From positions 1 to 25,751 of IMG/VR virus record IMGVR_UViG_3300031994_000480: 25,751 nucleotides of DNA. The stretch is one strand, 5' to 3'. The first letter of the stretch is position 1; every line of letters starts with the position of its first letter. The stretch comes from a virus. Shown in pieces: positions 1 to 25,751 of the stretch. Below the pieces are notes generated by a model. That model saw only the letters and a list, made by a program, of their open reading frames with translations, had not been told where the DNA came from and did not search any database. The position numbers and the translations under genes were made by a program.

Positions 1-127
1 ATCTACTAAAATACTTCTTGGCACAATTACATTATCATTATAATCGCCTTTATCTTGATGATATTCCGCACTTGAAGCCCAAGTTGTTAATTCATTTCCA
101 CTGCTACCAGCCATTACATTACCTCCT
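1..127. repeat. Terminal direct repeat, copy A; identical to 25625..25751 (circular-contig overlap or terminal redundancy)
   Basis: Base-by-base comparison of the first 127 nt with the last 127 nt shows identity. The gene starting at 25738 continues seamlessly from position 114 of copy A. Confidence 0.95.
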
Positions 128-1151
128 CGCTAGCATTAGCAAGAGCCAATGATATTACGCCATTTGCGTCAATGCTGATACCAGTGCCCGCAGAATAACT
201 AGGAACTTGGCTTAAAGCATTATCGACATAATTCTGCGTCGCATACCCAGTTAGACTTTGATGCGAAGTTAGATATCCAGCATCGTTCGTAAAAGCACTT
301 ATATTAGTTGGCACTGTTGGGATAGTTGGTTTATCTTGTAAATCATTATAAGACAAATCAGTAGCATCAACGCTAATTTCGTTATTCGCATCTATATCAA
401 TGCCAGTGCCTGCGGTATAGGTAGCACCGCCACCGCCTCCGCCAGATGGAACAGTCTCCCAAGACTTGGTTGATGTGCCATTTGAAACAGTATCTACAAG
501 CATATAAGTGCCGTCAGTAGATGGGAAGGTTGGTAAAGACTGTTGATATAAAGCAAATAAATCTTCCATTATTGTATTGGTTCCTGACATAAGACCTGTT
601 TTTATCAAACCACCCGGTCTGCCGCCCCAAAAATAACCCGTTATCTATCCATTGGCTATCGAAAAGTTTAAATTGGTAGCCCAGGTATTGCCCGAATCTA
701 TTACAAGACCAAATAATTTATAAGAAGACATATATGTATTTCGAGGACCGGGCTATATTATTTTAAAAGGAAACAAAGCGTAGGAATATGAAGAAAAATA
801 ATCTTCATCATATGGTATAATTTGATTTTCAAGAGAACTCTCATTGGTAGCATATATCACATATTTATCTTCAAGTCCATTTTCTATATCATCGATAAAA
901 TTAGTAAATAACTATCTTTTTTCAACCGGTATTGTAAAAATAGAAGTGCTAGTGCTAGCGGATATAAATTGTGGATTAGAATTTATTCGAACTATAACTA
1001 TATATCTTTGCTATGCTCCACTACTTCCGCCGGCATTTTCCGCCACATATTCTTTGATATTTTTGCTTAATTCGAGCAGTCCTTCTTTATTAACTAATTT
1101 ACCACTATTAATTAATTCATAATCAGTTGCGGGATTAATTTCGCCTGCCAT
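114..1151 (-). CDS. Fibre / receptor-binding-type protein (about 345 aa) with a poly-Gly hinge and xAGTGIxIDANxxIS motifs
   Basis: ATG at 1149-1151 follows AAGGAGGGG. Four in-frame TAGs start at 1011, 912, 753 and 645 (+ coordinates), and the same frame holds throughout. TAA stop at 114-116 overlaps the next ATG (TAATG). Confidence 0.7.
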
Positions 1152-1166
1152 TATAACCCCTCCTTA

Positions 1167-1736
1167 TTAGGAAGCAGAAGCAGCACTCCAAATAGTATCG
1201 ATATCATTATTACTCAAAGTCTCAATAGTGATTTGAGTATCTCCAATGATTTCCCAAGCATTATTAATATAAGCATACTCGGTATAAACATTATTGGTGC
1301 CTGCGGTGCCTTTTGCTACCAAGTAAATAGTAGAAGTAGAAATGTTTGTGGTAGGTAAAGTCTGGACGATTTCAAAACCAAAAGTAGTAATGTTGCCAAT
1401 AGCAGAAGTAATATCACTCATAGTAGCAACCTTATTAGAAGAAGCATTATAAGCGGTATTAAATACTAATTCATCCTGCTTGCCGCTAATGTCTGGGATA
1501 TCTGCCATAGTCGCAACCTTGTTGCTAGTAGCATTATAAGCGGTATTGAAAGCAAGAGCGTCCTGCTTACCGCTGATGTCAGGAATGTCTGCCATAGTTG
1601 CGGCTTTATTAGAAGTAGCATTATATTCAGTATTAAAAGCCAAGGTATCCTGCTTTCCTGCTACGGCTGACTTTACTAATCCACTGTAATAAACTAATTT
1701 ATCACCGGTTAAAACTTTATTATCATAACTTGCCAT
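1167..1736 (-). CDS. Fibre protein with three tandem 29-aa repeats (GKQDxLxFNTxYNAxSNKxATMxDIxxIS)
   Basis: ATG at 1734-1736 follows AAAGGAG. TAA stop, no TAG. The repeats are visible in the translation. Confidence 0.7.
   Translation of the reverse strand: MASYDNKVLTGDKLVYYSGLVKSAVAGKQDTLAFNTEYNATSNKAATMADIPDISGKQDALAFNTAYNATSNKVATMADIPDISGKQDELVFNTAYNASSNKVATMSDITSAIGNITTFGFEIVQTLPTTNISTSTIYLVAKGTAGTNNVYTEYAYINNAWEIIGDTQITIETLSNNDIDTIWSAASAS
1404..1658 (-). repeat. Three tandem ~87-bp coding repeats inside the fibre gene
   Basis: Near-identical nucleotide blocks, e.g. gtagcaaccttattagaagaagcattataagcggtattaaa and gtcgcaaccttgttgctagtagcattataagcggtattgaa. They encode the 29-aa repeat. Confidence 0.8.
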
Positions 1737-1754
1737 AATCGCATTTCTCCTTTA

Positions 1755-1949
1755 TTATATACTATTCCAAATGTCAAGAATATCACTATTAGATAGATAT
1801 TCATAATTGCCGGCAGGTCCTTGCGGTCCTGCTGGACCAGGAGGTCCCTCTGGACCCTGCGGACCAGGTGCTCCGCGGTATGTTGGATTTGAGAGTTCTG
1901 CCTCGATATAAGGTTCAGTCTCAATCATACTTACAATTATCTCATTCAA
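1755..1949 (-). CDS. Small collagen-like protein (64 aa) with 7 G-X-Y triplets
   Basis: GAPGPQGPEGPPGPAGPQGPAG is encoded at about 1809..1874, a local GC-rich patch. The ATG overlaps the upstream TGA (ATGA). TAA stop. Confidence 0.7.
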   Translation of the reverse strand: MNEIIVSMIETEPYIEAELSNPTYRGAPGPQGPEGPPGPAGPQGPAGNYEYLSNSDILDIWNSI

Positions 1950-2275
1950 AATGTGATACCTCCTTCAAACTTGAACTTGGCTGGTCCAAGGATAGTATCT
2001 ACTCGTCCATCTGCCCCGTCAAACTGAATGTCATACCAATAATTACCTGGCTCAATATCGGTATCTGCGGAGGACAACTGGATAATCGCTCTTCCATTCT
2101 AAAATGAAGTAATGGTCTTTTGAATGACGGGATTTTCTTTTTCTTTCTCTGTATTAACAGTAAAGATAATCTTATCTCCATCATCCAAAACATAATTACT
2201 TAATCCAATAGCAAAGGAGCCCGTATCTTTGACAATCATACGCATCTTTTTTGTATCTTTATCAAAGTAAAGCAT
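1946..2275 (-). CDS. Hypothetical structural protein (109 aa, beta-rich; possible Ig-like/decoration protein)
   Basis: ATG at 2273-2275 lies 5 nt after GGAGGTG. One in-frame TAG at 2099-2101. TGA stop at 1946-1948. The standard ORF track misses this gene and instead shows an off-frame ORF at 1999..2193. Confidence 0.6.
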
Positions 2276-2287
2276 TCCGGCACCTCC

Positions 2288-2886: not shown

Positions 2887-2906
2887 AAAAATGAACCTCC
2901 TTCGTC

Positions 2907-2947
2907 AAAAAAATTAGAGGCTCATAGGATTTACTCCTATGAGCCTC
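2907..2947 (-). terminator. Rho-independent terminator after the capsid gene
   Basis: Perfect 13-bp stem (gaggctcatagga / tcctatgagcctc), a 5-nt loop, then a T7 run on the minus strand. Confidence 0.85.
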
Positions 2948-2954
2948 CTATCAA

Positions 2955-3731
2955 TTAAGCAACAGTAATCTTTACTAACTTGGTAGCGTCAGTCAAAGCA
3001 ACCAAAGCAACCTTGCGAGCATAGACCTTATTTTCACGAACATTAGCGTCGCGTTCTTGTTCGATTTCAGTGCTCTTCTTTACGAAAAGAGTAATGGCTT
3101 CTTTGGTAGCAAGATAACCAGTATCAGCAGGAACAGCCTTGGATACGATTACAGGAACACCACAAACAGAACCAATATAACCAGTGCGGACAAAGCCTTC
3201 AACATACTTCAAGTCGTCCTTCAAAGCCTTGCGGAAATCAGCCTGGTCGGCAGGAGAGATAAGCAAGAACAAGCCAGTCTCATCTTCAAGGTTCATCTTG
3301 GCAATAGCATCAACAACAGCATCAAAACTCCAAGCGGAAGCAGGAGCAAGAAGAGTTGCTTTATTATATTCAGCAATAGCCTTGGTGGTGAAGTCATTTA
3401 CCATCTGCTTGGCAAGTCCATCGAGACCCACATCGACTACCATAGGGTCAGTCATTTCCTGTTCATCATAATACTTGAAACGACCCTGGGTGGTGCCAAC
3501 CTCATACTCTTCTGGAACGAAACCAACTTCGATGTCTTCACTATTACCTACACCCATAGCAAGGTCTTCAACATTACCGGTAGCGGTATAACGATTAATA
3601 ACCTTCTTCATACCAGCATTTTCGGTAAGAGAATTATCAACAGTCATATAATTAGACAAGTCGATAGCAGTAGTCAAAATATCATTAATTTTATTTTCAA
3701 GAACAAAATTTTCATAAATGGTATGTGGCAT
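2955..3731 (-). CDS. Major capsid protein (small HK97-fold type, 258 aa)
   Basis: Uninterrupted ORF directly after the scaffold gene, with RBS AGGAGTG. Composition and position are typical of a major capsid protein. No TAG. TAA stop. Confidence 0.75.
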   Translation of the reverse strand: MPHTIYENFVLENKINDILTTAIDLSNYMTVDNSLTENAGMKKVINRYTATGNVEDLAMGVGNSEDIEVGFVPEEYEVGTTQGRFKYYDEQEMTDPMVVDVGLDGLAKQMVNDFTTKAIAEYNKATLLAPASAWSFDAVVDAIAKMNLEDETGLFLLISPADQADFRKALKDDLKYVEGFVRTGYIGSVCGVPVIVSKAVPADTGYLATKEAITLFVKKSTEIEQERDANVRENKVYARKVALVALTDATKLVKITVA

Positions 3732-3745: not shown

Positions 3746-4324
3746 TTATTGTGTTAATTCTTTATATAATGTGGGATTAGTTCTATATATTTCAGCCTGT
3801 TGTGCGAGGTTCAACTTGCGGAACTGCTCTTTTGTCATCCCGCCCTGTTGTGCGGACCCTGCTTTTGGAGTAGGCTGGGCTATCCTCTTGGCAACCGCGT
3901 CTGCGACTGCCGCCTTAAATGCCTTATCAAAAGCATCAATGTTAGCCATCATAGTTTCCGCATCTTCCGCGACAATATAATCAACAAACTCAACTGGAAG
4001 CCCTCTGTTAGCCATCACTTTCGATGCCTCTAACTTATTTTGAGCGATAGCAAACTCTCGCTCCTTCTGTTCGAGTTCTTCCACTTTCTTATTAAACTCA
4101 TATTCACGGCGTTGATTTTCATCCATCTCACGCAACTTATCGGCTTCTGCCTGTTGCTTATCGAGTTCAGCCTTCTGCTTCTTCAATGCTTGTGAAACTC
4201 TCCGGTCGCCCTCTTGTTGTAGCAACTTTCTAACTTCTTCTTCGGTGTAAGTTTTTGGTTCGTTATTCCCCTCATCAATAGGAGTTGAATTATTTTCCAA
4301 ACCCTTATTTTCTAATTCACTCAT
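3746..4324 (-). CDS. Scaffolding protein (charged coiled coil, DUF4355-like)
   Basis: Start taken at MSELENK (ATG 4322-4324) after AGAGGT. Glu/Lys/Gln-rich helical sequence immediately upstream of the capsid gene. No TAG. TAA stop. Confidence 0.7.
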   Translation of the reverse strand: MSELENKGLENNSTPIDEGNNEPKTYTEEEVRKLLQQEGDRRVSQALKKQKAELDKQQAEADKLREMDENQRREYEFNKKVEELEQKEREFAIAQNKLEASKVMANRGLPVEFVDYIVAEDAETMMANIDAFDKAFKAAVADAVAKRIAQPTPKAGSAQQGGMTKEQFRKLNLAQQAEIYRTNPTLYKELTQ

Positions 4325-4383
4325 AATAATACCTCTCTTGAAAGAGCCCTCAACGGAGTTCTCTCTCATATAATATAATTTTT

Positions 4384-4413
4384 ATTCTAGACGGTTATGA
4401 CTGTTCCGCCCAA
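4384..4413 (-). promoter_or_regulatory. Candidate sigma70-type promoter for the scaffold-capsid unit (TTGGGC-18-TAGAAT)
   Basis: Hexamers read on the minus strand in the 4370-4492 intergenic region, divergent from the plus-strand promoter. Confidence 0.3.
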
Positions 4414-4430
4414 TCTAATAATTAGTTTAT

Positions 4431-4459
4431 TTGAAAAACTTATAAAATTATTATATAAT
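4431..4459 (+). promoter_or_regulatory. Near-consensus sigma70 promoter (TTGAAA-17-TATAAT) for the plus-strand small genes
   Basis: TTGAAA at 4431-4436, a 17-nt spacer, TATAAT at 4454-4459, and RBS AAAGGGG before the ATG at 4493. Confidence 0.6.
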
Positions 4460-4492
4460 ATATATGTAAGATAAAGAAAGGGGAAAAAACTA

Positions 4493-4714
4493 ATGGCAAA
4501 ATACGCAATGTTCTGTATCTGTAATGGGGAATGTCTGTTTTTCTTCACTTATAATTCATTCGACGAAGCAAGAGACGCAATGAAGAAAGAGTATCAGCAA
4601 GCCCTTATCGATGAAGGTTATGACCCCGAAATGGATGAGACTTGTGAAGCAGACGACTTCTGCTGGATACATACTATGGACCACATTGGCTGGTATATTA
4701 AGCCTTTGTTTTAA
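4493..4714 (+). CDS. Small Cys-containing acidic protein, paralog 1 (73 aa), unknown function
   Basis: ATG at 4493, TAA stop, no TAG. Shares MAKYAMFCICNxEC...YNSF...AM.K.YQQAL...WIH..DHI.WYIKPLF with the next gene. Confidence 0.7.
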   Translation: MAKYAMFCICNGECLFFFTYNSFDEARDAMKKEYQQALIDEGYDPEMDETCEADDFCWIHTMDHIGWYIKPLF

Positions 4715-4761
4715 TGCTCTATCCAACCTATTATATAATATATAAGAAAGGAAACAAACTA

Positions 4762-4986
4762 ATGGCAAAGAAATACGCGATGTTTTGTATCTGTAATGAA
4801 GAGTGTCAGTCTTTCAACACTTATAATTCATTCTACGAAGCAGAAGAAGCAATGAGAAAAGCCTACCAACAAGCCCTTGGCGACGAACATTATAATGATT
4901 ATGACGCCGAATGGGATGATGAAGCAGACAAATACTGGATACACAGTGCCGACCACATCCATTGGTATATTAAGCCCCTGTTTTGA
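4762..4986 (+). CDS. Small Cys-containing acidic protein, paralog 2 (74 aa), unknown function
   Basis: ATG at 4762 follows the duplicated ttatataatatata...aagaaagg leader. TGA stop. The ORF-track start at 4714 is an upstream extension. Confidence 0.7.
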   Translation: MAKKYAMFCICNEECQSFNTYNSFYEAEEAMRKAYQQALGDEHYNDYDAEWDDEADKYWIHSADHIHWYIKPLF

Positions 4987-4991
4987 GATTG

Positions 4992-5019
4992 AGACCCAGT
5001 AAATCTGGGTCTTTTTTTT
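4992..5019 (+). terminator. Rho-independent terminator of the plus-strand gene pair
   Basis: Stem agacccag / ctgggtct, loop taaat, then a T8 run. It overlaps the TAA of the convergent minus-strand gene. Confidence 0.8.
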
Positions 5020-5905
5020 ATTCCTCTAAACTTTCTTCCTCTTCCCAAACAACAAAAGAACAAGCACAGTTAGGATGGTATGGCGGCAATTCGATATTTA
5101 TATGTGCGTCCTCTAATCTCACAGGGTCGCCATCCACATAATCCAAACAAATCCCACCACATTCAGCGTCTCCTACGATTTCCACATATTCAACGCCTGC
5201 CTCTAAATAAGTATCTATCAGTGCTTGGTTATAAAAAGCCATCGTCTCGGTCTTTATTAACCGAGCAGTATCATAGGCAGTAGCATTCGTGAGTTCTCGC
5301 CAAGCCCACTTCATCCACTCCATACCCTTGCCATTTGTTAGCCCTTCCCGCAGTATAAAATCTAATTTCTTCTAAAAGTTTGCGGTGTGCTCGTATAAAC
5401 GCTGGCTATAAGTTTTTCCATCGCTACACCAAGGGATAGGAAGCACTTTACTTGTAATATAAGTATCTGTAATTCTTACCTCTGCTTTTGCTTGAAGATG
5501 CGGTGGCTATGTATTATCTTTCCACATAGGGGTTCTTTGAAGAATAATATAAACATCTTTACTCCCTTGCTGATAAGTATTTATAAGACTTTCAGTAATA
5601 ACATTATATGCTATCCACTGTCTTTCAGTCATTCTCCATACTTCACGCATCTACATTTCTTTTATCGCATATTCAACAGCAGGAAACTTACTCAAATCTA
5701 TCTTGCGGATATCCCCTATATAAGGGTCCCGCAAATACTTCTCAATAATGGTTTGGAGTTCTGGTTCTAACTCCTCCCACATTTCATTCATTATCTCATC
5801 AAGTAATTGATACAACTCTGCGGTTTTTTCATAGGCATCAGCCAATACCTATAACACTTGACGCTGAACGCGTTCAGTCTTCGTTAGTTTGCTCTTTCTC
5901 TTCAT
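5018..5905 (-). CDS. Head morphogenesis protein (SPP1 gp7 / Mu F-like)
   Basis: C-terminal ECGGICLDY...ELPPYHPNCACSF motif. Four in-frame TAGs start at 5849, 5651, 5507 and 5372. TAA stop. The ATG at 5903-5905 is uncertain (weak RBS, overlaps the portal end). Confidence 0.7.
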
Positions 5906-7262
5906 AGTTCTTCATAGCACCAGTAGAGTAATTTAAACTCGCAGATTGTAGGAATGGGTTATTCATTTTGCTCTTCTCTTGCTCGCTAGCGAGTTGCTCC
6001 TGTTCCGCCTTCACATCTTCAACGAAAGGCACTTGTGCCAAGAGGGTCTTGTTAGATACAATACCGTCAAGACTAGAAACCATTTGTGCCAACTCACTCA
6101 AATTAGTAGGAATGTTGCGTCTAAATACAATATCAATAGCACGCCAATCAAATGACGCACCCATCAAGCCCTGTATCTGTGCGATAAGTTCAAAACGCTG
6201 TTGTAAGCCCTTCTTAAACTTACGCTCCTTAATAGATACCAAGTTTTCAGTCCCCAAAGTCTTAAACTGTATCGCTACGCCGCTACTATTACCAGCAAAG
6301 TTTTCATCACTCATATCGGGGCAGTGAGCGAACTTATGAATATCTTTATCCAGGCGGACTTTCATATTTTCAGTAGTTGTATCATTAGCATTTTTAATAA
6401 GCCATTCCGCCGAAGTGCCTTCGTCCATCAAGAGCACTCTATTCTCTTTCATCTTTGCGATGTCTTCTGGGTCTGCGGTAAAGCCATAAAGTGCCAAATA
6501 AGCATCTACGAAGTAATCAAAATCATTTACCGTATCGCTTTCCATTACATCATAAGCGTCGATAAGACTAATTACAGTTTCAAAGTCGCCTAACTGCTCT
6601 TCATTATTCTTATAAATAGCAATAGGAACCATACCAAAATAATGTGGTGTAGTTTCAACCAACTGGAAACTTCCTGCTTGCGTGCTTTTATAAGTGAATA
6701 CTTCTTTATCGGTATAGAGTTCTGCGATAGTAGTTTCTTTATTATCCTACAAGATATCATTAACAGTATAATATCGAATAAATGCGGTTAAGTTGTGTTC
6801 GATAGTCTCATCATAAATAGGAATACATTCTTTTGGGTCAAGAGCACAAAAACGCAACATAGGACGCCCCATACCTTCATCCTCTTGCTCCATATAAAGT
6901 AATTCATATGCTATACCATAGATGCTTGCGTTCTTTGCTAATTCAGTATTTTCATCAGCCTCATCATTATATTCAAGTATCATCTATAATTCTTTAAGCA
7001 TATCAGTCTCTTCTGCGTTATAAGTGATGGGCTCGCCCACAAAATAACCCACTAATGAACTAGTAATAAGATTAGCATAAGGATTTACGATTTTATTATT
7101 TGGCTTTGTTGGGTCTGCCATTGTTCTATCATTTATGCTGTGCTGCCCGACATAATACTTATATAATTTCACCAGACGAGCCAAATCACGCGTCTTATGC
7201 TAATCTACAATTTTTTTTACTAAATCTGGGGTATAAACCGTATCTTTTGATAAAGTAATCAA
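5874..7262 (-). CDS. Portal protein (SPP1 gp6-like)
   Basis: TTG start at 7260-7262 lies 7 nt after GGGAGG. KLYKYYVGQHSI and later portal-like blocks. Three in-frame TAGs start at 7200, 6984 and 6747, and four ORF-track pieces share one frame. TGA stop. Confidence 0.85.
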
Positions 7263-8517: not shown

Positions 8518-8911
8518 TTTTATCCCCAACAATAGAGACTTCAATCACATCTTTGGTTTCTACCTTTTGGTTCTGTAAGCCCAGATTTTTACTCAATAGG
8601 CTTAAAGCATTTAGTTTAGCAGAAGTAGTATAAACTTCATCGCCCTTCTGTGCGAATGCTATGCTCGCTAATTCACTATTAACTCTGTATGCGTCGATAC
8701 CCATAGCGTCATAGATTTCCTTTTTACGCATTTCTAGGTATTCTCTTACTTCTGGTTTCTGTAATAGTTTATATGGAGAAGCATTAAGTGTAGATTTATT
8801 AGTGATACCAAAAATATCTCTATAAGCATCCTATGCTTTATATCCATTAGATAGATATAATTCTACAAATGCTTTCCATTTAGTTTCTGGTGTTTTAGGA
8901 TTATAGCCCAT
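8507..8911 (-). CDS. terS: Terminase small subunit (Terminase_2 / P27-like)
   Basis: ATG at 8909-8911. YLSNGYKA[TAG]DAY resembles the NATQAA helix-turn-helix motif. One in-frame TAG at 8831-8833. The TAA stop overlaps the terL start. Confidence 0.7.
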
Positions 8912-9098: not shown

Positions 9099-9166
9099 AG
9101 TGTTTCCCCTCATTTATCTTGTTTCCAAGGTTATTTATTCCCTATTTTATATATTTTATATATTAT

Positions 9167-9270
9167 GCGGACGAAATCTGTCCGCTAAACCGGACTAAAT
9201 CTGTCCGCTACATTCCGGACTGTTTTCGTCCGCTTCCTGCTAGCAAATAGCGGACGAAATCTGTCCGCTA
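9167..9270. repeat. Array of four 20-21-bp self-complementary repeats (GCGGAC-N7-GTCCGC(TA)); candidate iterons/origin or operator set
   Basis: Copies at 9167-9187, 9190-9210, 9215-9234 and 9250-9270; the first and fourth are identical. An AT-rich tract at 9131-9166 flanks the array, which lies immediately 3' of the winged-helix gene. Confidence 0.8.
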
Positions 9271-9273
9271 CGA

Positions 9274-15500: not shown

Positions 15501-18500
15501 TAAAGATTAATCTACCATTTGTAAAATCGTCGGTTTTATAATAATCTATTTCAATCGGCAAATCTGTAATACTATTGGCTTGTTCTATATCGTGTAAATT
15601 AAAGAACAAATCTTTTGAACCTATTCTCATATTATCATTATAATAAACGACGCTCTTTGAGAAAGAACGATAACGATAATAGATATTAATAAGACCTTGT
15701 TCGTAAATATCTTTTAACTAAAATTGGTCGTAAGGATTATCTGGGTCATCTGTATCAATTAAACCATTTAAATAATAATCATTTGGTTTAAAATCATCAC
15801 AATGAAGTTGTTCTGCGAATGTAGAAGCATTTGGGTCATACCATACAGGAACAGCAACACTTTGCTGTGCGATAAGATTATTTTGTTCGTCATAATAATT
15901 CGCACCAACATTACCAAAATAGCAAGGGTCGTCCATAACCATTAATGGAATAACATCTTTGGCAGGGATAGTTATTTTTTCTTCTACCATAGAAGTTTCT
16001 AATACATCGCCCTACTGAATAATACCATTTGGCATTATAGCACCATCTTTTAAATGAGTTTCAGCAATGGTTCCAATATATGTTCCACCCTCATTACAGT
16101 TAGTGAAGAAGATTTCTGTAACCAAATCAAATAAACCATTTTCTGGCATAATTTGTCCGGCAATTTCTTCTCCTTTTGCGACAGGCACTAAATCACGGAC
16201 TAATTTATCTTGGTCCCATATTTTAATACCCCAAACCATACACATTGTAGGCTCTGGTTCAGCAGGGGCTCTCCAACTAGCAAAACCAACATACATTGAT
16301 GTTGAATGGCTATATTTAACACTTTGAGTATTTTTTCCTGACATAGGAATAACTTTGCCATCTGGTGTTGTATAGTATTGAGTATCTTCTGTTGTGCCTA
16401 AATTTTCTAACATAATTTCGGTTTCTATCGTTCGCTAAACATCATAAGCATAATAAGGATTTAAAAAGTTTTGACGCAGTGCGGATGGAACTCCATACAT
16501 AGTAGATAGTGCCCCAGAAACATTTGGATAAGCCAGATGACAGAATGGATTTTGATTAATTATTCCGCTATCTGGATTACGAGTAGCAAATAGAGTTAAA
16601 GAACCTCTTGGATGGCATCTTACTTCAAAACTATCTTTATCATCGTTGTTAGAAAAATCATAATAGCCATATCCATTACCGCTACCAAAATCATACGCCG
16701 TGCTATATTTTCTATAAGCACTTAAAGTATGAGTAATAGGAACAGCAACATCGAATTGATTAAAGCCATTATCAAGAGCGTGCTATGATAATTTCATTTT
16801 AGACCCGTGGTCTATATCATTAAAGAAACTACTCTGGCTCATTCTTTCTCCAATAGAAGCATTATATTGAACCTCATAATTACTATTTTCTTTAACGATA
16901 TTATAATTTTCGTCCATTGAAGTAGATGCTCCATTACGGTAGGTCGCACAACTACTATTCCATTTAGTTATTCCGCGATTAACATCAACAACTACTCCTA
17001 CCAAAGAGCCATCTTTTGTATCACGATAAGTAGTGCTGTATTTTTCTCCTTCCCAAGTCGCTGGTGTATATTCATTATATACAACAGGCATTCTAACAAT
17101 AGGAACACGACCGCGGAATGCGAATGTGCCAGTGCCATATTTACCTATGGTTTTTTCATCATCGCCTAATATGAAATTATTAAGTCGATAAGATGTATCA
17201 CCTAAATCCCCAAGAATTTCAACTGGGAAAGCCGCAGCATAACCGAATATACCCATATAGTCCAAAGTCTAATCAGTATAATAGTTTTGACGGTCATATA
17301 AAGGAGTTACTGATTTAGAAACATATTTCATCTCAACGGTCAAACGACTTAATTCTTTTGGAGTATATCCTAAATCTATATATGGAATACGCCCACCCGT
17401 TTTAATAAATAGAAAATGGTCATATTGATTTCCTGCCGAGTGAGTATAGTTCCTATTATTAGGACCAAATCTAGCATCCCAAAATAAGACCTTATTTAAT
17501 CTATTTAAAGGAATAGCGTCTGGTCCGCCAGGTTCAATAATAGTATCATAAACAATATCAATACCTGCTTCAACTAATTCTTCAAAAGTATAAAGTCTAT
17601 TAGTATTTTGTAATACGCCATAATCGCACTTAACAGGTTTAAATAAATTGACATATCTATTAGGCAACTAATCAACTAAATAAAATGGTCCATCAAAATC
17701 ATCTATTTTAACCGACCAAGTTGTAGTCGCAACCTAATTTAAAATATCTACATCATCTGTGTAATAACGAATTTCAATTTGTTCTGTTGTTGGCAAATAA
17801 CAAATAATATATTCGTTTTTTAGTTTAGAAGGACTATAAAGATGTTCGTCCATTTTATACCACTGATAACTTTCACCAGAGCGATAATACTTTTCTGGTT
17901 TAAAAGCATCCCAGTCAATATAATAATCAATAAATTCACCTTCACGGAAATCGCTCGCACCCAAGGTAAGAGTTATATTACCAAGCGTTTCATAAGTATG
18001 AAAACCAAATACTTTCTTAATATATTTGATATTAGTAGTATAAGTTGGTTCTTCTCCTTCAATAGGAGTATAAACAATATCATAAGGTGCGTGTGCGATT
18101 ACTCTTCCCAAGGTAACTTTTGGCTCTGGAAATACATAATTAGTTTCATAGCCTTCTGGTTTATACTTATTCAATCTAATCAATTCACCAAACATAGGGA
18201 CTTGATAGAAGTCTTTTTCAGTAAAAACCAAACTCTCTGTTGCTAACAAGTTTGCCGGGTCATTAGTATCTTTATAATAACGAACTTGTATTACATTTTC
18301 TTGCTCTTCATATACAACATTAAATACAAAGTTCTTTAAGTTTTCAAAATTAATTTCACCTAAATCAGTTAAATTAACGATTTGTCCTGGATTATAATAA
18401 AGTGGCTGATGTTCGGTTATTTCTAATTTCGCATCTAAATCCCATTCTTCTTCAAATTCATCACCACGATAGAAAATCTAACGAGTTTCAAAGATATAAT

Positions 18501-21423
18501 CGCCTTTATAATAATTTACATAGAATGAGCCAATTTGCTGAACTGGGTCTGTAATAGGATAACTATCATCATCACGGATATTAAAACTATTTTGACCGGT
18601 AGCATCTTCAAAGAAAGACTGACTTACTTTATCATACAAGCAATTACTAGGAGCAACTTGCGAACCGATTTTATCATAATACTGAACCGGGATAAGGTCT
18701 CTTACCACTTCTCCATCATATTCAATAATACAATTATAAATCTCAATTCCTGCTAAACCGCCAGTATAAACGCCAGCATTATTATTCGCAAATAAATAAA
18801 GTGGGAATGGCATCCGTGCGTGGTCTGTTGCTACTCTATTAGAGTAGTTGAAAACAGCAACAGAATAACCGTCCGCACTAGGATTACTATAAATACCAGA
18901 ATTAGGACCCCATCCAATCGCATTACTTTCTGTTAATACAAGAGGAGCACTATGCTGACCCGCCCTAGCCTCATAAGTATTTACGCCACTTAAATTAGTG
19001 CCATACATTGTTTGGTTGTTAAATCTCATAAAGTATTCACCAAAAGAAGAAGAACTACCAAACAAATAAGCATAACCGGCATTTACTTGGCTCATTGGTG
19101 TATATTCATCAACTAATCCGCACTTTATCTTAACAGTTAATTTACTCATATCTTCACAAGTAAAGCCTGTGTTAATATAAGCGTGCGGGAAATGCCAATT
19201 TGGATGCTGTCCTTCATATCCGCCTAAATCATTATGCTGTAAGAATAACACTCTGTGAGGATATTCAATATCACCTGGTTCATCAGGCTCACTTACAGTA
19301 TCATAAACAACATCAATACTAGTAAGTTCGCGTAATGCGGTGAAATTAACTGGACCGCGATACTGGACGATACCGTCTGCCGCGAATACATTCTTATACT
19401 GATTAATTTTTAGTCCTAAATCAATAAGAGTAGTGTCCGCGGAAAAATCAATAACACGATAATTAATAGTATCACTGCCAACCCAGTTTCTAACATCGAC
19501 ATCATCTGTATAATAATTTATAACAGTGTAATAAGTAGAAGCATAATATAATACGCTATAACTGGTTGCCAAAGTTTCAAAAGTAATTACCTGGCTATCA
19601 CTTACTCCATCCAAAATACCAGTTTCATAGTATTCTGGCTTATGTGCGTTTAGGTCAATGATATCTTTAAGCCGTGCTCCGCCAATCAATTCATTCTCGC
19701 TAACAGTAATAATCGCTGTGCTAATAGTTGAAAAAGCACTTGCTAACTGTTGCTTATAACGAATAATAATATCTTTCGTGCGAGTAGTCTAGATTTCAGT
19801 ATAAATAATATAAATAGGCTGTGCGTAAGTTAAAGCATCTAATGATACTTCGCCTTTATAACTCGCCTCTGGGTCAAATTGATATCCAGTAGGTTTATGT
19901 CCTGTAATATCAACAATATCTCCTAACAAAGGCTGATTATAGAACTGCGTGATATTTATATTAATAGTTTCTTCGGTGTATAAATTACTGTCATCTTTCT
20001 TATAGCGAACAGTAAGAGGATATTCAATAGGCACATAATAAACCTATAAAGCACCCGCTTCAATTACACTATCAAAAGTATGATATAAACCAGCATTATA
20101 CAAAACACCGTTTTGATAATTACCAGTAAGATATTTATCAAGGTCTATCCCGATATTTTCTAAACTGAAATCTTCTTCATAACTTGAATTATATTTCAAA
20201 AGGATAGGAGATGTAGCAAGACGATACCAATTAGGATAAGTGCCCGCATAGTATTCTATATACACTACATATTCTATTCTACGATAATCAATGTAATAAG
20301 ATGTTTCAAGTTCATCGTAATTAACGAAGTCAGTGCGGTTATGACTATCTATGTAGCCAGGGTGATAATACTCTGGGGTTGGACGCCAAGCGTCAAAATT
20401 AAAAATGTCTTCAAATGTTGTTCCTTCAACGATACGAGTTTCAGGGACAGATACCAAAACACTTTCAATAATGTCATATTCTCCATTATCGTTTTCATTA
20501 CGATAAGTTAAAGTGATATTTTTAATTCGGTCATCATCGATATGAGTATATTGGACGAAAATAGGACTTGCCGCAAGCAAGTTTTCAACAATCAAACCTT
20601 GATTATATAAAATCTTCGCACTATATCCTTCTGGACGATAATTATTTACTTTAATTAATTCACCAACAGAACGCATCGCTTGGATTTGCGGATAAGTGAA
20701 AGGAATAGTTTCTTGAAGGCTCTGTTGATAGCCACTGCCACTATCAATAATATAACGAACTTCAACGCTATACTGAATGGGCTCATAATTAATGATAAGA
20801 ACGCCAAGAGACTGTAAGTTATCATAGGTTAATTCCATCAAGCCTAAATTAGAAGCAACACCAGATTTATAATGTTCGTCCTTAAACTTATCAACATCAA
20901 TACCAATAGATGATAAAGTTGGAGTTTCTTGCTCGCTAAATGAAACAGAACGGATAAGAACTGTATCCTGTCCTACGAAAATGTTGCCGTTTTGATAATA
21001 TACTACATTTAAGCGGAAAGTGCTAGTCGCACCAATATCAGTTGTATATACTTCTCTATCTAATGAACGAGCATATCCGCTAGCCAAATCATATGTAATT
21101 AAAAAATTGCCATTCTTTAAGCGAGAAGGCTTATTAGTCCCATTAAATACAACATCAAATTGAAAATCTAAATCATCAAATTTAATAGTTGCTTTCTTTA
21201 ACATTTGGGTTAATTGGCTCATTTTTAGGAATGCCTCTTGTTCGTCTGGTTCGAGAACCAAAAATGTCAAAGTCATTTTCTTAAAAGTGTCCTATGAACG
21301 AACATAATATGGCTCTAAACTTCCATCCGCCCATTCATTAACCGCTTTCACTGTATTGGAGGTAAGTATTCTGTCATATAACTTTATATTTAATGAAGTT
21401 ATATCAATTCCATTAATAAGCAT
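12586..21423 (-). CDS. Giant tail protein (2,945 aa): Dit N-terminal domain, ~10 beta-rich ~80-aa repeats, three lectin-like modules and SH3b-like segments
   Basis: ATG at 21421-21423 follows GGAGG. Ten ORF-track pieces plus the gaps between them (all checked codon by codon) share one frame. Thirteen in-frame TAGs start at 21292, 20044, 19789, 18478, 17734, 17668, 17269, 16783, 16435, 16012, 15718, 14155 and 13465. No TAA or TGA occurs until TAA 12586-12588. Confidence 0.8.
17734..21050 (-). repeat. Protein-level array of ~75-85-aa repeats (..V.YY.DD....(K/R)PEGY..), MucBP-like by pattern
   Basis: Recurring strings RYYTDDVDILN, NYYTDDVDVRN, VRYYKDTND, NYRPEGYSA, NKYKPEGYE, GHKPTGYQ, AHKPEYYE, WRPTPEYY and FKPEKYY. 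The copies are too divergent to be DNA repeats. Confidence 0.5.
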
Positions 21424-22002: not shown

Positions 22003-22495
22003 TTAACAGCACCTCACATACTGACTAACGCTCTACCATATTTCCAACAGCGAACTCATCAGGTTCTGTTAAAGATATTGGAGAAGTATTGTCCTATAAA
22101 CTCTCTAATACTGCTATTTTTATTATATTTGCTAATGTCTCTTGGCGTTTTTGATACCCTTTATATGCTAATTCTATTTCACCAGGAGACATCTATAAAG
22201 CAATGTTAGGGTCTATACCAATCTCACCAACGGCTTGACTATATAGACCCTGAAAATCAATAGAGAAAAAGGAGACCTATTCAACTAATGAAGGAATGAA
22301 ACGCTTAAACAGTCCTTTTGAGTATAACTCTTTCGCCGCGGTAGGACTTAAATGATTTTCATCAAAAGTAATCAAACCTGCGGCGAAAAAATCACTCTCA
22401 TCATACTATGATAAAGACTGTAAATATATTATCCCACGCAGTCCAATTTTGAACCAGTAATCTTTACCGTCAATAGTAATCAATTGTTTATTCAT
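21995..22495 (-). CDS. Tail assembly chaperone (positional call, 166 aa)
   Basis: The ATG overlaps the major tail gene stop (ATGAATAA). Five in-frame TAGs start at 22406, 22277, 22193, 22094 and 22025. TGA stop at 21995-21997. Confidence 0.5.
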
Positions 22496-22886
22496 TAATA
22501 ACACTCAATTCTCCATTACCTAATAACTTTGCTTTGTATTTATAGGTATCATTATATGCCGCGACCAAAGGGAACTCTGTAAATAATGCTTGTCCCTTAT
22601 ATTTTTTGTTATCTAATTCTACTTCTACTGCGACATCTTGATTATTCCTAAACGCTTGCTATAAAGTATTATATGCCGCACTATCTTTTACATATAATCC
22701 ATCGCAACTAATAGACCAAGATTTTACGCCGCCCAAATACTCTTTCCAAACCGCATCTATTTTGTTCGTGATATCAATAGATGCTGCTGACTGTATCAAG
22801 GTTGCGTTAAGTTGTCCCGCCAGTTTCTCTCCCGCAATAATTATAGATACTTTTATACCCTTTTGGGTGTTATTCACCATCTTCAT
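22488..22886 (-). CDS. Major tail protein (TP901-1 / phi13-type)
   Basis: GEKLAGQLNATL..SAASIDITNK...WKEYLGGVKSWSISCDGLY pattern. ATG at 22884-22886 follows GGGGGA. One in-frame TAG at 22659-22661. TAA stop. Confidence 0.7.
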
Positions 22887-23271
22887 CGGCAAGTCCCCCT
22901 GTTATGATAAAAGTAAAGTTAGCAACACCGTGTTTGCGGAGAGGTCCTGTCTCATTATCGTCAAGAATTTGAAGCCTATTAAGATAACAATAAGTGATAT
23001 TATTATTTTCAATAAACTGTGGCAAAGATTTAATAATCTCATCGACGATTTCAATAATTTCTTGCTCGCCACTATATCTAGTAAAGATATCAAGAGTGTA
23101 AGTAATGTTTGACATTACCAAATCCCTTGCGTGCCGTGCGGTCAAATTATGAAGACGCAACTTCAAAAAAGGAAAATCATTTTCATCGTGATAAGCACCA
23201 GTATCATATACAGTTTTACCTGTTATCTCTTGTATATGAGAACGAAAGGCTTCTTTAATATCTTTCAACAT
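22870..23271 (-). CDS. Tail completion / terminator protein (DUF3168-like)
   Basis: VYDTGAYHDENDFPFLKL pattern and position directly upstream of the major tail gene. No TAG. Confidence 0.5.
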   Translation of the reverse strand: MLKDIKEAFRSHIQEITGKTVYDTGAYHDENDFPFLKLRLHNLTARHARDLVMSNITYTLDIFTRYSGEQEIIEIVDEIIKSLPQFIENNNITYCYLNRLQILDDNETGPLRKHGVANFTFIITGGLADEDGE

Positions 23272-23272
23272 T

Positions 23273-23455
23273 TTATTTTACCTCATCTACAAGTTTATAA
23301 TTTTTCAAATCATCTTGCGAACTAATAGAAATATATTTCGCATATAGATGTTCTTCTATTTCAGTAATAGTGCCATCTGGTTCTTTAATTTTTGTAATAG
23401 GCGGATTAGCCCAATCATAAACCTTGCCTTTGGGAGCAGTGTATAAAGTATTCAT
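23273..23455 (-). CDS. Small hypothetical protein (60 aa), paralog of 24223..24423
   Basis: RBS AAGGAGG. Shares KV(Y/F)DW....EEHLYAK..(F/S)IS..D...NY..(I/V)DE with the other copy. No TAG. Confidence 0.6.
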   Translation of the reverse strand: MNTLYTAPKGKVYDWANPPITKIKEPDGTITEIEEHLYAKYISISSQDDLKNYKLVDEVK

Positions 23456-23467
23456 TTAATAGCCTCC

Positions 23468-24217
23468 TTAAATAATTTCTAAATCATATGATGCTACAAA
23501 AGAGATAAGTTCATCATCTAATAGTTCAAGTTCGCCTTCGCCCCAACTATCATAATCGCCAGAAAAAATCTCTTCAAAAATAGAAAAAATGGCTTCAATT
23601 AATGCTATGACAACCGCACAAATTAAATCGGCTATTAAACTTGACTATTCGGTTTGTTCGATATGATGATTTCTATTTTCTTCAACTTCATCTATTCTCT
23701 CTAAAATCTCATTTCTTTCAGCCTCTAACTATTCCATCTCATCTTCGTCTTCACAATCCGCAGCCTACGCTTCAACATCAGCCAACTATTCATATAAGTC
23801 TTGTAGTTCCTAATCGGCTTCTTCTGCCATCCCATCATTTTCTTCAAAGTCTGCTACTGGTTCGATTAATTCTGCTTCTGCTTCTTCTTCTTGGCTTTCA
23901 GCAACAATATCGCAACAAGCATTTGCTAAATCGTCTAAATACATTTCAATAGCAGGTTCAAAATAAGGTTGTGCTTCCATCTTATATGTCCCGTATTCCA
24001 CATACTAGGCATACTCACAACTAACTGGGATGGAGCAATAGGTCTATGACACTATCGCTCCATCACCTATTGTGCTTCGTAGATAACCAGTGCGGACAGG
24101 ACAGTTTGCTTGTGCGTCGTTAATTACCGCATCAACAAAATCTTGGAGAGGCTTACTATAATCAAGGTCATCAGGCAAGCCCCAATCGGCGACATCTACT
24201 TCACACAAAAGACCCAT
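23468..24217 (-). CDS. HK97 gp10-like neck protein with a long acidic C-terminal extension and one hydrophobic helix
   Basis: ANCPVRTGYLRSTI ... CEYA[TAG]YVEYGTYKMEAQPYFEPAI. Seven in-frame TAGs start at 24044, 24005, 23810, 23786, 23765, 23729 and 23645. TAA stop at 23468-23470. Confidence 0.7.
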
Positions 24218-24222
24218 AATAA

Positions 24223-24423
24223 TTACTCCTTTACGGGTTCATCTATTTCAACATAATTTTCGATATTATCAGTGATACTTATAAAAAGTGTTTTAGCATA
24301 AAGATGGTCTTGTATAACATTACCTTCTTCGTCTTCGTGTGTGTGTTCGGCAAGTTCTTTCCAATCAAACACTTTTCCTTCATCTGCGTCATATCGAGTT
24401 AATGTATATTTATTACTAACCAT
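24223..24423 (-). CDS. Small hypothetical protein (66 aa), paralog of 23273..23455
   Basis: ATG at 24421-24423 follows AAGGAGAA. No TAG. TAA stop. Confidence 0.6.
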   Translation of the reverse strand: MVSNKYTLTRYDADEGKVFDWKELAEHTHEDEEGNVIQDHLYAKTLFISITDNIENYVEIDEPVKE

Positions 24424-24436
24424 TTTTGTTCTCCTT

Positions 24437-25738
24437 TTAAGCAATACTTACAGTCCAACCTTTTGCTGTTGCGACTGCTATTTCGGCAGCGGTAAGGTCA
24501 TCAATTCCGCCTTCATCAGTGGAATTACCTGACCCGGCTTTAAACGCAATAGTATTACCATTATTCTCAACAGCAGAAGTATCAGGTAATGTATTAATAG
24601 TTTCAACCGCACTTGTATGATTATATCTACTATATGCTAATGATTTGCTCCACCAATTAGGATTATTTTTCATTTGATTATAAGTAGTAGCATCTACCAC
24701 AGGCTCATTTTCACCAGTTCCTTCTTTAAGTGCGGCTAATTCATAACCTGTATTACCACTATAATAACCTACTCCATTACTACGCAAATCTAAATACTAT
24801 TTTTTCCAATAGGCAGTATAAGGTTGATTATTTGTGTCTAACTAAAAAGTAAAACGCGATAATCTATGTGCGGCATTTACACAATTACTAAACTAATCAC
24901 TAGTAAAAATAGTAGTAGCATTAGTAGAATGATGAGAAATAGGCACATTTAAAATCGCAGGAACGCAAAATGCCTAATATGCTAATGACGAATATGGATA
25001 CTGATATATGCTTGATGTTCCTGCGTCTTCATAAGACAAAAAACTAAAATCTATCGATTTATTTAAGCGAATACAATTACTATATATTGATGTTAAAGAA
25101 AATGTCCCTGAACTATTAATAATAGATGTATTAGAAAAATCAAATAGTTCTTGTAAATAATAACACTCATTAGCCAAGCCATTAAAATCAGTATTAATTG
25201 TGCCTGTTATATGAGGTGGTTTTATACAATTTTCGCAACCTTTTATTAACGATGCTACTGAACTACCCCTTGTAGAAGAGCAATTAATAGTTATATTAGA
25301 CAAATCTGTTATTTGAGTTGAATTCACAAACATATAACTTGCCAAAGTAATACTATTAAACTACATTTTATCGCCATACTGATTTAATACCCAAGACCAC
25401 TTATTTGAACTAAATAAGTTCTACACATTTCCGGTGAAAGTCAAATCTGCTGTTGTAGGAGTATAGCCTCCTCCTACTTCTAAATTACCAATTTCAGTAG
25501 CGAAATACTCTGGACTAATACCAGGACTACCAACAGTAGAACTAATAAAAGTATCTCCAAACACATCTACATCGCTTTTGACTGTTGCTGTTCCATACTT
25601 TTTAATTCTTATGGCATCCGCGGTATCTACTAAAATACTTCTTGGCACAATTACATTATCATTATAATCGCCTTTATCTTGATGATATTCCGCACTTGAA
25701 GCCCAAGTTGTTAATTCATTTCCACTGCTACCAGCCAT
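24437..25738 (-). CDS. BspA-type leucine-rich-repeat protein (433 aa), probable adhesin / receptor-binding protein
   Basis: Repeated F.N/GC..L..I.F patterns (LIKGCENCIKP, FNGLANECYYLQEL, IYSNCIRLNKSIDF, FSNCVNAAHRL). Six in-frame TAGs start at 25421, 25361, 24974, 24893, 24842 and 24797. Three ORF-track pieces share one frame. TAA stop. Confidence 0.6.
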
Positions 25739-25751
25739 TACATTACCTCCT
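25625..25751. repeat. Terminal direct repeat, copy B (identical to 1..127)
   Basis: Same 127-nt string as the window start. Confidence 0.95.

What the first reader, a model, noticed from the sequence alone, without database searches (positions are those of the whole stretch)
1..25751. Recoded genome with no visible suppressor tRNA or release-factor gene
Described recoded phages are mostly much larger and typically carry a suppressor tRNA, and sometimes release-factor or tRNA-synthetase genes. After read-through annotation this 25.6-kb genome is almost fully coding. The only sizeable non-coding stretches are 4370-4492, 9099-9273, 10107-10379 and 11105-11171, and I could fold none of them into a cloverleaf. 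TAG also occurs in the putative early regulator (HTH) and in the homing endonuclease, not only in late genes. Suppression therefore has to exist from the start of infection. Possible sources are a host-encoded amber suppressor or weak RF1 activity, a co-resident helper element, or an unrecognised factor encoded here.
Basis: inference. Interest (0 to 1): 0.85.

Follow-up and report, generated by a model that had tools for sequence, protein, structure and literature searches.

The report
Amber-recoded small phage lacking suppressor tRNA
This is a complete 25.6-kb rumen or gut phage that reads the stop codon TAG as glutamine but carries no tRNA or other gene able to do so, a situation already reported for about half of such phages and still unexplained.

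Summary
The window is a complete circular 25,624-bp siphovirus genome: it has a 127-bp assembler overlap, and an independent contig spans the junction. Reading through TAG raises coding from about 60% to 97%. There are 76 in-frame TAGs. They align best with Gln in standard-code relatives. No tRNA, tmRNA, Rfam family, release factor or aaRS is present, and no tRNA was found in about 50 loci of relatives.

The framing is only partly right. Small TAG-recoded phages are already described (Topaz 22±3 kb, Garnet, Amethyst). Only 40-52% of code-15 phages have a detectable Sup-CUA tRNA. This is therefore a new member of a known, unexplained kind.

New points from this analysis:
- Recoded and standard-code siblings are interleaved in the family trees.
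- No gene or RNA segregates with recoding.
- TAG shows no sequence context.
- TAG is strongly avoided in the major capsid and scaffold genes, is sparse in very long genes, and is absent from the recombinases of relatives. This points to a per-codon cost.

My best reading (about 0.5) is that TAG decoding is supplied in trans by the infected cell, through a host or co-resident Gln-accepting CUA suppressor tRNA that competes with RF1. A phage-encoded factor that I did not recognise remains possible (about 0.25). The host is unknown.

The parts
1..25751 (.). Complete circular (or circularly permuted) siphovirus genome with a 25,624-bp unit. Nearly all genes lie on the minus strand. TAG is used as a sense codon 76 times.
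25625..25751 (.). 127-bp copy of bases 1-127. This is the assembler k-mer overlap of a circular contig, not a biological repeat.
   Evidence: an independent contig spans the junction
7276..8544 (-). Large terminase (Terminase_3/6N) with 8 in-frame TAGs. Four of them sit at positions that are almost always Gln in standard-code relatives.
8507..8911 (-). Small terminase, 1 TAG.
5874..7262 (-). SPP1-type portal protein, 3 TAGs.
5018..5905 (-). Minor head protein (Mu F / SPP1 gp7-like), 4 TAGs.
3746..4369 (-). Scaffold protein (DUF4355). It has 16 Gln codons and 0 TAG.
2955..3731 (-). Major capsid protein with 0 TAG. The family is nearly TAG-free across recoded relatives (1 TAG against 62 CAA/CAG).
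2887..2954 (-). Strong intrinsic-terminator-like hairpin followed by a U run, just downstream of the capsid gene.
   Evidence: -28.7 kcal/mol, z -5.4
12586..21423 (-). Giant 2,945-aa tail-module ORF in the position where a tape-measure gene normally lies. It has 13 TAGs and a low TAG density (4.4 per 1000 codons).
12220..12573 (-). Dit-like distal tail protein, 0 TAG.
11172..12239 (-). Tal-like (Prophage_tail) protein, 3 TAGs.
10892..11104 (-). HTH regulator, 70-aa core starting at an ATG preceded by AAGGAG. It has 3 TAGs. The third lies where the homologues end and may be a former stop codon.
10380..10925 (-). NUMOD4/HNH_3 endonuclease with 5 TAGs, the highest TAG share in the genome (0.71 of Gln-type codons).
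9274..9657 (-). Replication-initiator-like winged-helix protein, 0 TAG.
9114..9273 (.). Four copies of the inverted-repeat iteron GCGGAC-N7-GTCCGC followed by an AT-rich tract. Probably the replication origin. It is not tRNA-like.
   Evidence: z -7.2; sequence read directly
10230..10379 (-). Intergenic stretch with a GC-rich hairpin downstream of the HNH gene. No cloverleaf.
4370..4492 (.). AT-rich divergent intergenic region between the scaffold gene and the plus-strand genes. No significant structure.
   Evidence: z 0.2 and 1.3
4493..4986 (+). Two paralogous small Cys-rich ORFs (73 and 90 aa). They are the only plus-strand genes and are TAG-free. The family is an orphan, so it is not a general recoding factor.
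22488..24217 (-). Neck and tail genes: neck/tail completion (7 TAGs), a small ORF, tail terminator (0 TAG) and major tail protein (1 TAG).

Best explanation
This is a complete small siphovirus that uses TAG as a glutamine codon throughout its genome. It does not encode the means to decode TAG.

The decoding capacity most likely comes in trans from the infected cell. The probable agent is a Gln-accepting tRNA with a CUA anticodon, encoded by the host chromosome or by a co-resident element, that competes with a still-active RF1.

Decoding has to be efficient, roughly 0.9 or better per codon, because single essential proteins carry 8-13 TAGs. It is not free, however. TAG has been purged from the most abundant proteins and is kept sparse in very long ORFs.

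Shown here: the recoding, the Gln identity of TAG, genome completeness, the absence of any tRNA, release factor or aaRS, the absence of a recoding-linked gene, and the pattern of TAG avoidance.

Inferred: the external source of decoding, its tRNA nature, and the competition with RF1.
For: 1. No tRNA or tRNA-like element was found by ARAGORN, Rfam/Infernal at E<=10, relaxed ARAGORN or an anticodon-loop motif scan.
2. The genome is closed.
3. ARAGORN finds no tRNA in about 50 loci of relatives from several recoded lineages. Rfam finds nothing in 8 of them.
4. Recoded and standard-code siblings are interleaved in the portal and TerL trees. No gene cluster, and no TAG-free gene family, is specific to recoded genomes. 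No island of nucleotide conservation is specific to them either. Changing code therefore did not require gaining a phage gene.
5. The bases around TAG show no sequence context, so TAG behaves as a general sense codon and not as a programmed read-through site.
6. TAG carries a cost. Across 12 recoded relatives the capsid gene has 1 TAG against 62 CAA/CAG (p 1e-6) and the scaffold gene 6 against 124 (p 3e-9). TerL, minor head, neck and HNH genes have TAG shares of 0.36-0.48. TAG density drops from about 12 to about 4-6 per 1000 codons in ORFs longer than 600 codons, and no gene has more than 13 TAGs.
7. There is precedent for phages that follow a host's codon reassignment without carrying their own tRNA: AGG->Met phages (PMC8629427) and code-4 Mycoplasma phages (PMC11210395).
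Against: No bacterium with TAG->Gln decoding or a constitutive amber suppressor is known from genome screens. [quoted passage not shown]

Two unrelated recombinase families in recoded relatives are TAG-free despite having 13 and 10 Gln codons. The HTH and Rep genes of relatives are TAG-poor. This hints at a cell state in which TAG is not decoded, which fits a switchable mechanism better than a constitutive one.

The host could not be identified. The closest genome hits are only 40-42% identical in the portal protein. No tRNA source was actually seen.
Confidence: 0.5

Rival explanations
1. The phage encodes an unrecognised factor of its own. This could be a very non-canonical suppressor RNA. 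It could also be a small protein that disables RF1 or retargets a host tRNA or GlnRS, so that TAG is read as Gln only after infection or induction.
For: About 8 non-structural ORFs have no known function: g15, the DUF5659 paralogues g16 and g18, g23 and g24, and others. A set of genes is standard-code compatible: the Rep-like gene, g15, g23/g24, and the recombinases of relatives. That is what a temporal switch would need. Borges et al. raise this possibility explicitly.
Against: No gene family, TAG-free or not, is shared by the recoded lineages and absent from standard-code siblings. The g23/g24 family is an orphan with one related cluster among 1.8 billion representatives, and its model is of low confidence (pLDDT 54). 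No RNA structure or nucleotide island is specific to recoded genomes. The one cloverleaf-like candidate, antisense in the scaffold gene at 3995-4084, is a by-product of the coding sequence and also occurs in standard-code relatives.
Confidence: 0.25
2. There is no dedicated suppressor. In the natural host RF1 is weak, scarce or lost, and wild-type near-cognate tRNA-Gln reads UAG often enough for the phage.
For: TAG carries a clear per-codon cost, as expected for slow near-cognate decoding. From general knowledge, not tested here: E. coli strains lacking RF1 read UAG mainly as Gln, Tyr and Lys.
Against: Proteins with 8-13 TAGs need about 90% read-through per codon. That is hard to reach with near-cognate decoding, which would also insert a mixture of amino acids at conserved Gln positions. 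Standard-code siblings of the same family still end 0-5 genes per locus in TAG. No RF1-deficient bacterium is reported.
Confidence: 0.12
3. The phage depends on a helper. Its TAG-containing genes are translated only when a co-infecting or resident recoded phage, such as a large rumen phage carrying Sup-CUA, supplies the suppressor tRNA. The genetic code would then act as an induction signal.
For: The maintenance-type genes are TAG-free or TAG-poor: Rep plus iterons, and the XerC/D-like recombinases in relatives. Relatives have never been seen integrated; all contigs are 27 kb or shorter, which is compatible with an episomal life style. Borges et al. suggest that recoded phages could sense co-infecting phages in this way.
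Against: The genome has a full set of head, tail and packaging genes and looks autonomous. The family is very abundant, with more than 4,000 capsid homologues, which is hard to reconcile with obligate co-infection. No co-occurrence data could be examined.
Confidence: 0.1
4. The in-frame TAGs are not real recoding. They reflect pseudogenes, sequencing error or misassembly.
For: None found.
Against: Identical sequence was recovered from three assemblies. Thousands of relatives exist, many with the same pattern. TAG sits at conserved Gln positions. The public protein database itself holds these proteins translated with Gln at TAG.
Confidence: 0.01

Closest known systems
Topaz clade of TAG-recoded phages (Borges et al., bioRxiv 10.1101/2021.08.26.457843; also Garnet and Amethyst)
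   Same: Small genome (Topaz 22±3 kb, here 25.6 kb). TAG->Gln recoding. Animal-gut origin. Firmicutes-type features. Standard-code close relatives within the same clade. Recombinase genes that avoid TAG, seen here in relatives.
   Different: This genome has no integrase. Neither it nor its relatives were ever found integrated. The capsid and scaffold genes are TAG-free, whereas Borges et al. stress recoding of structural and lysis genes. Clade membership could not be tested because no Topaz sequence was available.
crAss-like, Lak and Agate code-15 phages that carry Sup-CUA tRNA (some also RF2)
   Same: Same reassignment (TAG->Gln), and they infect hosts thought to use the standard code.
   Different: Those genomes are 100-600 kb, often carry suppressor tRNAs and sometimes release factors, and confine recoding to late blocks. 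Here there is no tRNA, and TAG is spread over all functional classes except the most abundant proteins.
Phages that simply follow a recoded host (code-4 Mycoplasma/Spiroplasma phages; AGG->Met phages of recoded Bacilli, PMC8629427)
   Same: An alternative code without a phage-encoded tRNA, with decoding supplied by the host.
   Different: In those cases the recoded host is known. No bacterium with TAG->Gln is known.
Laboratory amber-suppressor hosts (E. coli supE, tRNA-Gln CUA) that support amber-mutant phages
   Same: Host tRNA-Gln(CUA) inserts Gln at UAG in competition with RF1, which gives a per-codon cost. This is general knowledge.
   Different: Those phages carry single amber mutations and suppression is moderate. 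Here 76 TAGs call for much more efficient decoding.

Membership tests
Code-15 (TAG->Gln) recoded phages | In-frame TAGs interrupt conserved genes, and reading through them restores full-length ORFs and coding density. | tested here: met
   Coding rises from 15.2 kb to 25.7 kb on the minus strand and reaches 97% of the window. There are 76 in-frame TAGs.
Code-15 (TAG->Gln) recoded phages | TAG aligns with glutamine in homologues that use the standard code. | tested here: met
   Q is the commonest residue opposite TAG (92 of 312 cells). Eight of 15 well-conserved columns are Q. Log-odds are Q 13.2 against E 3.9.
Code-15 (TAG->Gln) recoded phages | TAG is not used as a terminator. | tested here: inconclusive
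   All 30 called genes end in TAA or TGA, but this follows partly from how the ORFs were called. Two TAGs, in the HTH gene and in g16, lie where the homologues end and may be former or leaky stops.
Code-15 (TAG->Gln) recoded phages | A phage-encoded Sup-CUA tRNA. This is frequent (40-52%) but not defining. | tested here: not met
   literature frequencies
Topaz clade (Borges et al.) | Placement inside the Topaz clade of the large-terminase tree. | not testable with these tools
   No Topaz sequence is held. The nearest GenBank phages are Clostridium phages at 48-51% TerL identity.
Topaz clade (Borges et al.) | Genome of about 22±3 kb from an animal gut, with a Firmicutes host. | tested here: inconclusive
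   The genome is 25.6 kb. Relatives come from sheep rumen, the ruminant gut and pig gut. AAGGAGG-type ribosome-binding sites precede 20 of 30 genes. A relative's giant protein has an SH3_3 domain. The host itself is not identified.
Topaz clade (Borges et al.) | Temperate life style with a TAG-free integrase, found integrated in a standard-code host. | tested here: not met
   The window has no integrase. Relatives carry TAG-free tyrosine recombinases, but every contig holding them is 27 kb or shorter.
Programmed, context-dependent stop-codon read-through | A specific nucleotide context or downstream structure at the read-through sites. | tested here: not met
   No positional bias from -9 to +12 around the 76 TAGs, apart from a weak excess of A at -1 (uncorrected p 0.004 over 18 tests).
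Phages that match a recoded host | The host uses the same reassignment. | not testable with these tools
   The host is unknown.

The most novel reading that the evidence does not exclude
This small, complete genome, with about 8 non-structural ORFs and no RNA gene, belongs to a phage family that switches between the standard code and TAG=Gln without gaining any gene.

The most novel reading not excluded is that decoding comes from a mechanism not yet described. One version is a phage-encoded non-tRNA factor, such as an RF1 antagonist or a factor that retargets a host tRNA. The other is a code-gated life style, in which an episomal phage expresses its TAG-containing genes only when a resident or superinfecting element provides an amber suppressor.
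Probability: 0.2. Interest if true: 0.85.

Novelty: new member of a known kind. Interest (0 to 1): 0.45.

Why it matters
How recoded phages without a suppressor tRNA get their TAG codons translated is an acknowledged open question. Between 48% and 60% of code-15 phages fall into this group.

This genome does not answer the question, but it is a compact test case:
- It is closed and small (25.6 kb).
- It has very few candidate genes.
- Standard-code sibling lineages are available for comparison.
- It shows a clear, quantifiable signature that each TAG has a cost: TAG is purged from the capsid and scaffold genes and capped at about 13 per protein.

That signature argues against a cost-free full reassignment. 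It narrows the options to decoding in competition with termination.

If the host were found, inspecting its tRNA set and prfA gene would settle the question for a very abundant rumen and pig-gut phage family.

Tried and rejected
- Relaxed ARAGORN (score thresholds of 60-80%, introns allowed, mitochondrial mode) gave 6-67 scattered hits inside coding sequence. The only CUA anticodons came with 122-414-nt 'introns'. I treated all of these as noise.
- A motif scan with 4 of 5 stem pairs gave one cloverleaf-like candidate antisense in the scaffold gene (3995-4084). Its minimum-energy fold buries the CUA in a stem. The motif comes from the peptide KLEA and is present in standard-code relatives and absent from several recoded ones. 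Rejected.
- The four non-coding stretches were folded. They are an origin with iterons, terminators and AT-rich spacers, with no tRNA-like fold.
- The g24 model was of low confidence (pLDDT 54), so I did not run a fold search. The family is an orphan.
- Host search: the GTDB scan gave only prophages with 40-42% portal identity in Lachnospiraceae, Holdemanella and others. The metagenome scan with a relative's recombinase returned only that relative's own contig. Homologues of the recombinase and of the capsid protein all lie on contigs of 27 kb or less. The Rep-like protein has no match in the plasmid or phage collections.
- A 52-kb contig carrying the closest relative's portal gene could not be read beyond 13 kb, so its nature (mixed assembly or larger element) is unresolved.
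- A viral-contig scan with the major tail protein gave only 3 loci.
- Megablast of the whole window against GenBank phages gave no match.
- A literature check for bacteria with TAG->Gln found none. The only genome-wide UAG reassignment reported in prokaryotes is to pyrrolysine, in archaea. That does not fit the Gln signal or the Firmicutes-phage-like genes seen here.

Full report
**What the window is**

The first 127 nt repeat at the end of the window. This length is a typical assembler k-mer overlap. An independent MEGAHIT contig (ENA ERZ27256871, 25,765 bp = 25,624 + 141) is 99.99% identical and runs straight across the window's ends. A third assembly (Logan SRR9006654) matches 5.1 kb at 100%.

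GC content is about 35%. Almost all genes lie on the minus strand.

PHROG and Pfam searches identify a siphovirus:
- small and large terminase, SPP1-type portal, and a Mu F-like minor head protein;
- DUF4355 scaffold, major capsid protein and head-tail adaptor;
- neck protein, tail terminator and major tail protein;
- a 2,945-aa ORF where a tape-measure gene usually sits;
- Dit and Tal proteins;
- a very small non-structural set: an HTH regulator, a NUMOD4/HNH_3 endonuclease, two DUF5659 paralogues, a replication-initiator-like protein, and a few ORFs of unknown function.

**Recoding is real and TAG means Gln**

Under the standard code, minus-strand ORFs of at least 100 aa cover 15.2 kb. With TAG read through they cover 25.7 kb. 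TGA read-through adds only about 2 kb, to 17.2 kb. A gene set called with TAG as sense covers 97% of the window. It contains 76 in-frame TAGs, 173 CAA and 79 CAG.

Many relatives of this phage use the standard code, so their DNA gives an independent reading of what TAG stands for. Opposite the window's TAGs they carry Q in 92 of 312 aligned cells, then K (54) and E (31). TerL positions 51, 80, 354 and 405 are Q in 11/13, 10/14, 15/17 and 16/16 relatives. A BLOSUM-based log-odds score, with each column weighted once, gives Q 13.2, E 3.9 and K -1.8. The public protein collection already stores this portal protein translated with Q at the TAG positions.

The bases around the 76 TAGs show no context signal, apart from a weak excess of A at -1. 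TAG therefore behaves as an ordinary sense codon and not as a programmed read-through site.

**No decoding machinery is encoded**

- ARAGORN finds no tRNA or tmRNA.
- Rfam finds nothing at gathering scores, and no tRNA hit even at E<=10 with permissive filters.
- ARAGORN at 60-80% thresholds, with introns or in mitochondrial mode, returns only scattered hits in coding sequence and no credible CUA anticodon.
- A direct scan finds no 5-bp stem closing a YU-CUA-R loop on either strand.
- With 4 of 5 stem pairs, one cloverleaf-like candidate appears antisense in the scaffold gene (3995-4084). Its best fold buries the CUA in a helix. The motif is a by-product of the peptide KLEA, and it occurs in standard-code relatives while being absent from several recoded ones. 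I rejected it.
- No release-factor or aminoacyl-tRNA-synthetase domain appears in any Pfam or PHROG result.

- 9114-9273 holds four iterons (GCGGAC-N7-GTCCGC) and an AT-rich tract next to the Rep-like gene. I read it as an origin.
- 10230-10379 holds a GC hairpin after the HNH gene.
- 4370-4492 and 11105-11171 are unstructured spacers.

**The family**

The portal and capsid proteins have thousands of homologues. Nearly all sit on contigs of 23-27 kb and none of the capsid or recombinase homologues listed on anything longer; one portal homologue lies on a 52-kb contig. Sources include sheep rumen (AUXO01), the ruminant gut and pig gut. GenBank phages are distant: the best TerL matches are 48-51% identical and come from Clostridium phages. 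There is no nucleotide match.

Strong AAGGAGG-type ribosome-binding sites precede 20 of 30 genes. A relative's giant protein has an SH3_3 domain. Both features suggest a Bacillota host.

Within the family, TAG-recoded genomes and standard-code genomes occur at the same identity levels. They are interleaved in neighbour-joining trees of the portal and TerL proteins (no bootstrap support was computed). This implies several code switches or much recombination.

ARAGORN finds no tRNA in any of about 50 relatives' loci. Rfam finds nothing in eight recoded ones. Clustering all ORFs shows no family present in the recoded lineages and absent from standard-code siblings, and no TAG-free family specific to recoded genomes. 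No island of nucleotide conservation of tRNA size is specific to them either.

**How TAG is used**

TAG is not spread evenly. In the window the scaffold gene (16 Gln codons) and the capsid gene (5) have no TAG. The HNH, HTH, neck, chaperone and TerL genes have TAG shares of 0.38-0.71.

Pooled over 12 recoded relatives:
- capsid gene: 1 TAG against 62 CAA/CAG (p 1e-6);
- scaffold gene: 6 against 124 (p 3e-9);
- giant ORF: TAG share 0.13;
- TerL 0.36, minor head 0.40, neck 0.39, HNH 0.48.

TAG density is about 12 per 1000 codons in genes of 100-600 codons and 4-6 per 1000 in longer ones. No gene carries more than 13 TAGs. The relatives are not independent samples, so these p-values are descriptive.

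This pattern is what a per-codon cost predicts: the more copies of a protein are needed, or the longer it is, the fewer TAGs it tolerates. At the same time, essential proteins with 8-13 TAGs need read-through of roughly 0.9 per codon (0.9^13 is about 0.25, while 0.3^8 is below 1e-4). That figure is my inference. Decoding is therefore efficient but in competition with termination.

**Timing**

The TAGs are there. The 70-aa HTH core, which starts at an ATG with a good ribosome-binding site, has three TAGs inside its conserved part, and the HNH gene has five.

This genome is an outlier on that point, however. HTH homologues in four other recoded lineages have 0, 0, 0 and 1 TAG. Rep-position genes have 0-2. 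Two unrelated tyrosine recombinases in recoded relatives are TAG-free despite 13 and 10 Gln codons. Borges et al. reported the same integrase avoidance for Topaz and Garnet. A state of the cell in which TAG is not decoded therefore cannot be excluded. That is the main argument against a constitutive host suppressor.

**Comparison with what is known**

Borges et al. describe eight recoded clades. Three are small: Garnet and Amethyst at about 34 kb, and Topaz at 22±3 kb, which infects Firmicutes and comes from animal guts. They note that genetic code varies within clades. [quoted passage not shown] Cook et al. found Sup-CTA in 52.4% of 715 code-15 phages.

Screens of prokaryotic genomes report no bacterium with TAG->Gln. 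There is precedent for phages that follow a recoded host without carrying their own tRNA.

The window is thus a new member of a known kind, probably Topaz-like. Clade membership could not be tested, and this genome lacks an integrase.

**Verdict**

The robust inference is that TAG decoding comes from outside this genome.

- I put about 0.5 on a Gln-accepting CUA suppressor tRNA of the host or of a co-resident element, acting in competition with RF1.
- I put about 0.25 on an unrecognised phage-encoded factor.
- I put about 0.1 each on near-cognate reading in a host with weak RF1, and on dependence on a helper phage.

None of these could be tested directly, because the host was not found.

Interest is moderate. 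The puzzle is real but already recognised. This genome's value is as a minimal, closed test case with standard-code siblings and a measurable cost signature.

Noticed in passing
window 9114-9273: Four copies of an inverted-repeat iteron (GCGGACAGATTTCGTCCGC and variants) followed by an AT-rich tract, directly downstream of the replication-initiator-like gene at 9274-9657. This is probably the replication origin.
   Followed up: partly
window 12586-21423 (minus strand): A single 2,945-aa ORF, 34% of the genome, sits where a tape-measure gene normally lies, between the chaperone-like genes and Dit/Tal. It is rich in Tyr, Asn and Asp and has no Pfam hit. It gives only a weak match to the C-terminal part of an amidase family, and a relative's version has an SH3_3 domain. 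No typical helical tape-measure protein was seen. Other subclades have a 690-810-aa protein at this position.
   Followed up: partly
window 12573-12588: The giant ORF ends in TAA. The Dit-like gene starts 4 codons later in the same frame. In relatives the two genes abut or overlap as separate genes, so I read it as two genes. TAA read-through was not excluded.
   Followed up: partly
window 4493-4986 (plus strand): Two paralogous small Cys-rich acidic ORFs (73 and 90 aa) are the only plus-strand genes. They are inserted between the minor head and scaffold genes and are TAG-free. The family is essentially an orphan (one related cluster among 1.8 billion representative proteins).
   Followed up: yes
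window 3057-3980 (plus strand): A 307-codon stop-free ORF runs antisense to the capsid and scaffold genes, in the most GC-rich part of the genome. A similar antisense ORF appears in two relatives. It is most likely a shadow ORF caused by codon bias.
   Followed up: no
window 2955-3731, and capsid genes of L021-L049: The capsid gene prefers CAG over CAA (46:16 when pooled), whereas the rest of the genome prefers CAA by about 2-3:1. This suggests translational selection on Gln codons in the most highly expressed gene.
   Followed up: partly
L086 17857-18795; L089 4617-5582: Recoded relatives carry TAG-free XerC/D-like tyrosine recombinases inserted within the structural module; in L086 the gene is on the opposite strand. 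All close homologues lie on contigs of 27 kb or less and none was seen integrated. Together with the Rep gene and iterons, this is compatible with an episomal (phage-plasmid-like) life style.
   Followed up: partly
L003 (ENA ERZ27256908 k141_100508, 52,010 bp): The closest relative (TerL 84% identical) lies on a 52-kb contig, twice the usual size. Only its last 13 kb could be read. Whether the rest is a second phage copy, a mixed assembly or other DNA is unknown.
   Followed up: no
window 10892-10940 and 9686-9700: In the HTH gene and in g16, the last TAG lies where the homologues' proteins end, and the ORF then runs on for 15 or 4 codons. In the HTH gene it overlaps the HNH start by 34 nt. 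These may be former TAG stop codons that are now read through.
   Followed up: partly
window 23273-23455 and 24223-24444; 8922-9113 and 9686-9883: There are two pairs of small paralogous genes: g2/g4 in the tail module and the DUF5659 pair g16/g18 in the early region. Both families also occur in standard-code relatives.
   Followed up: partly
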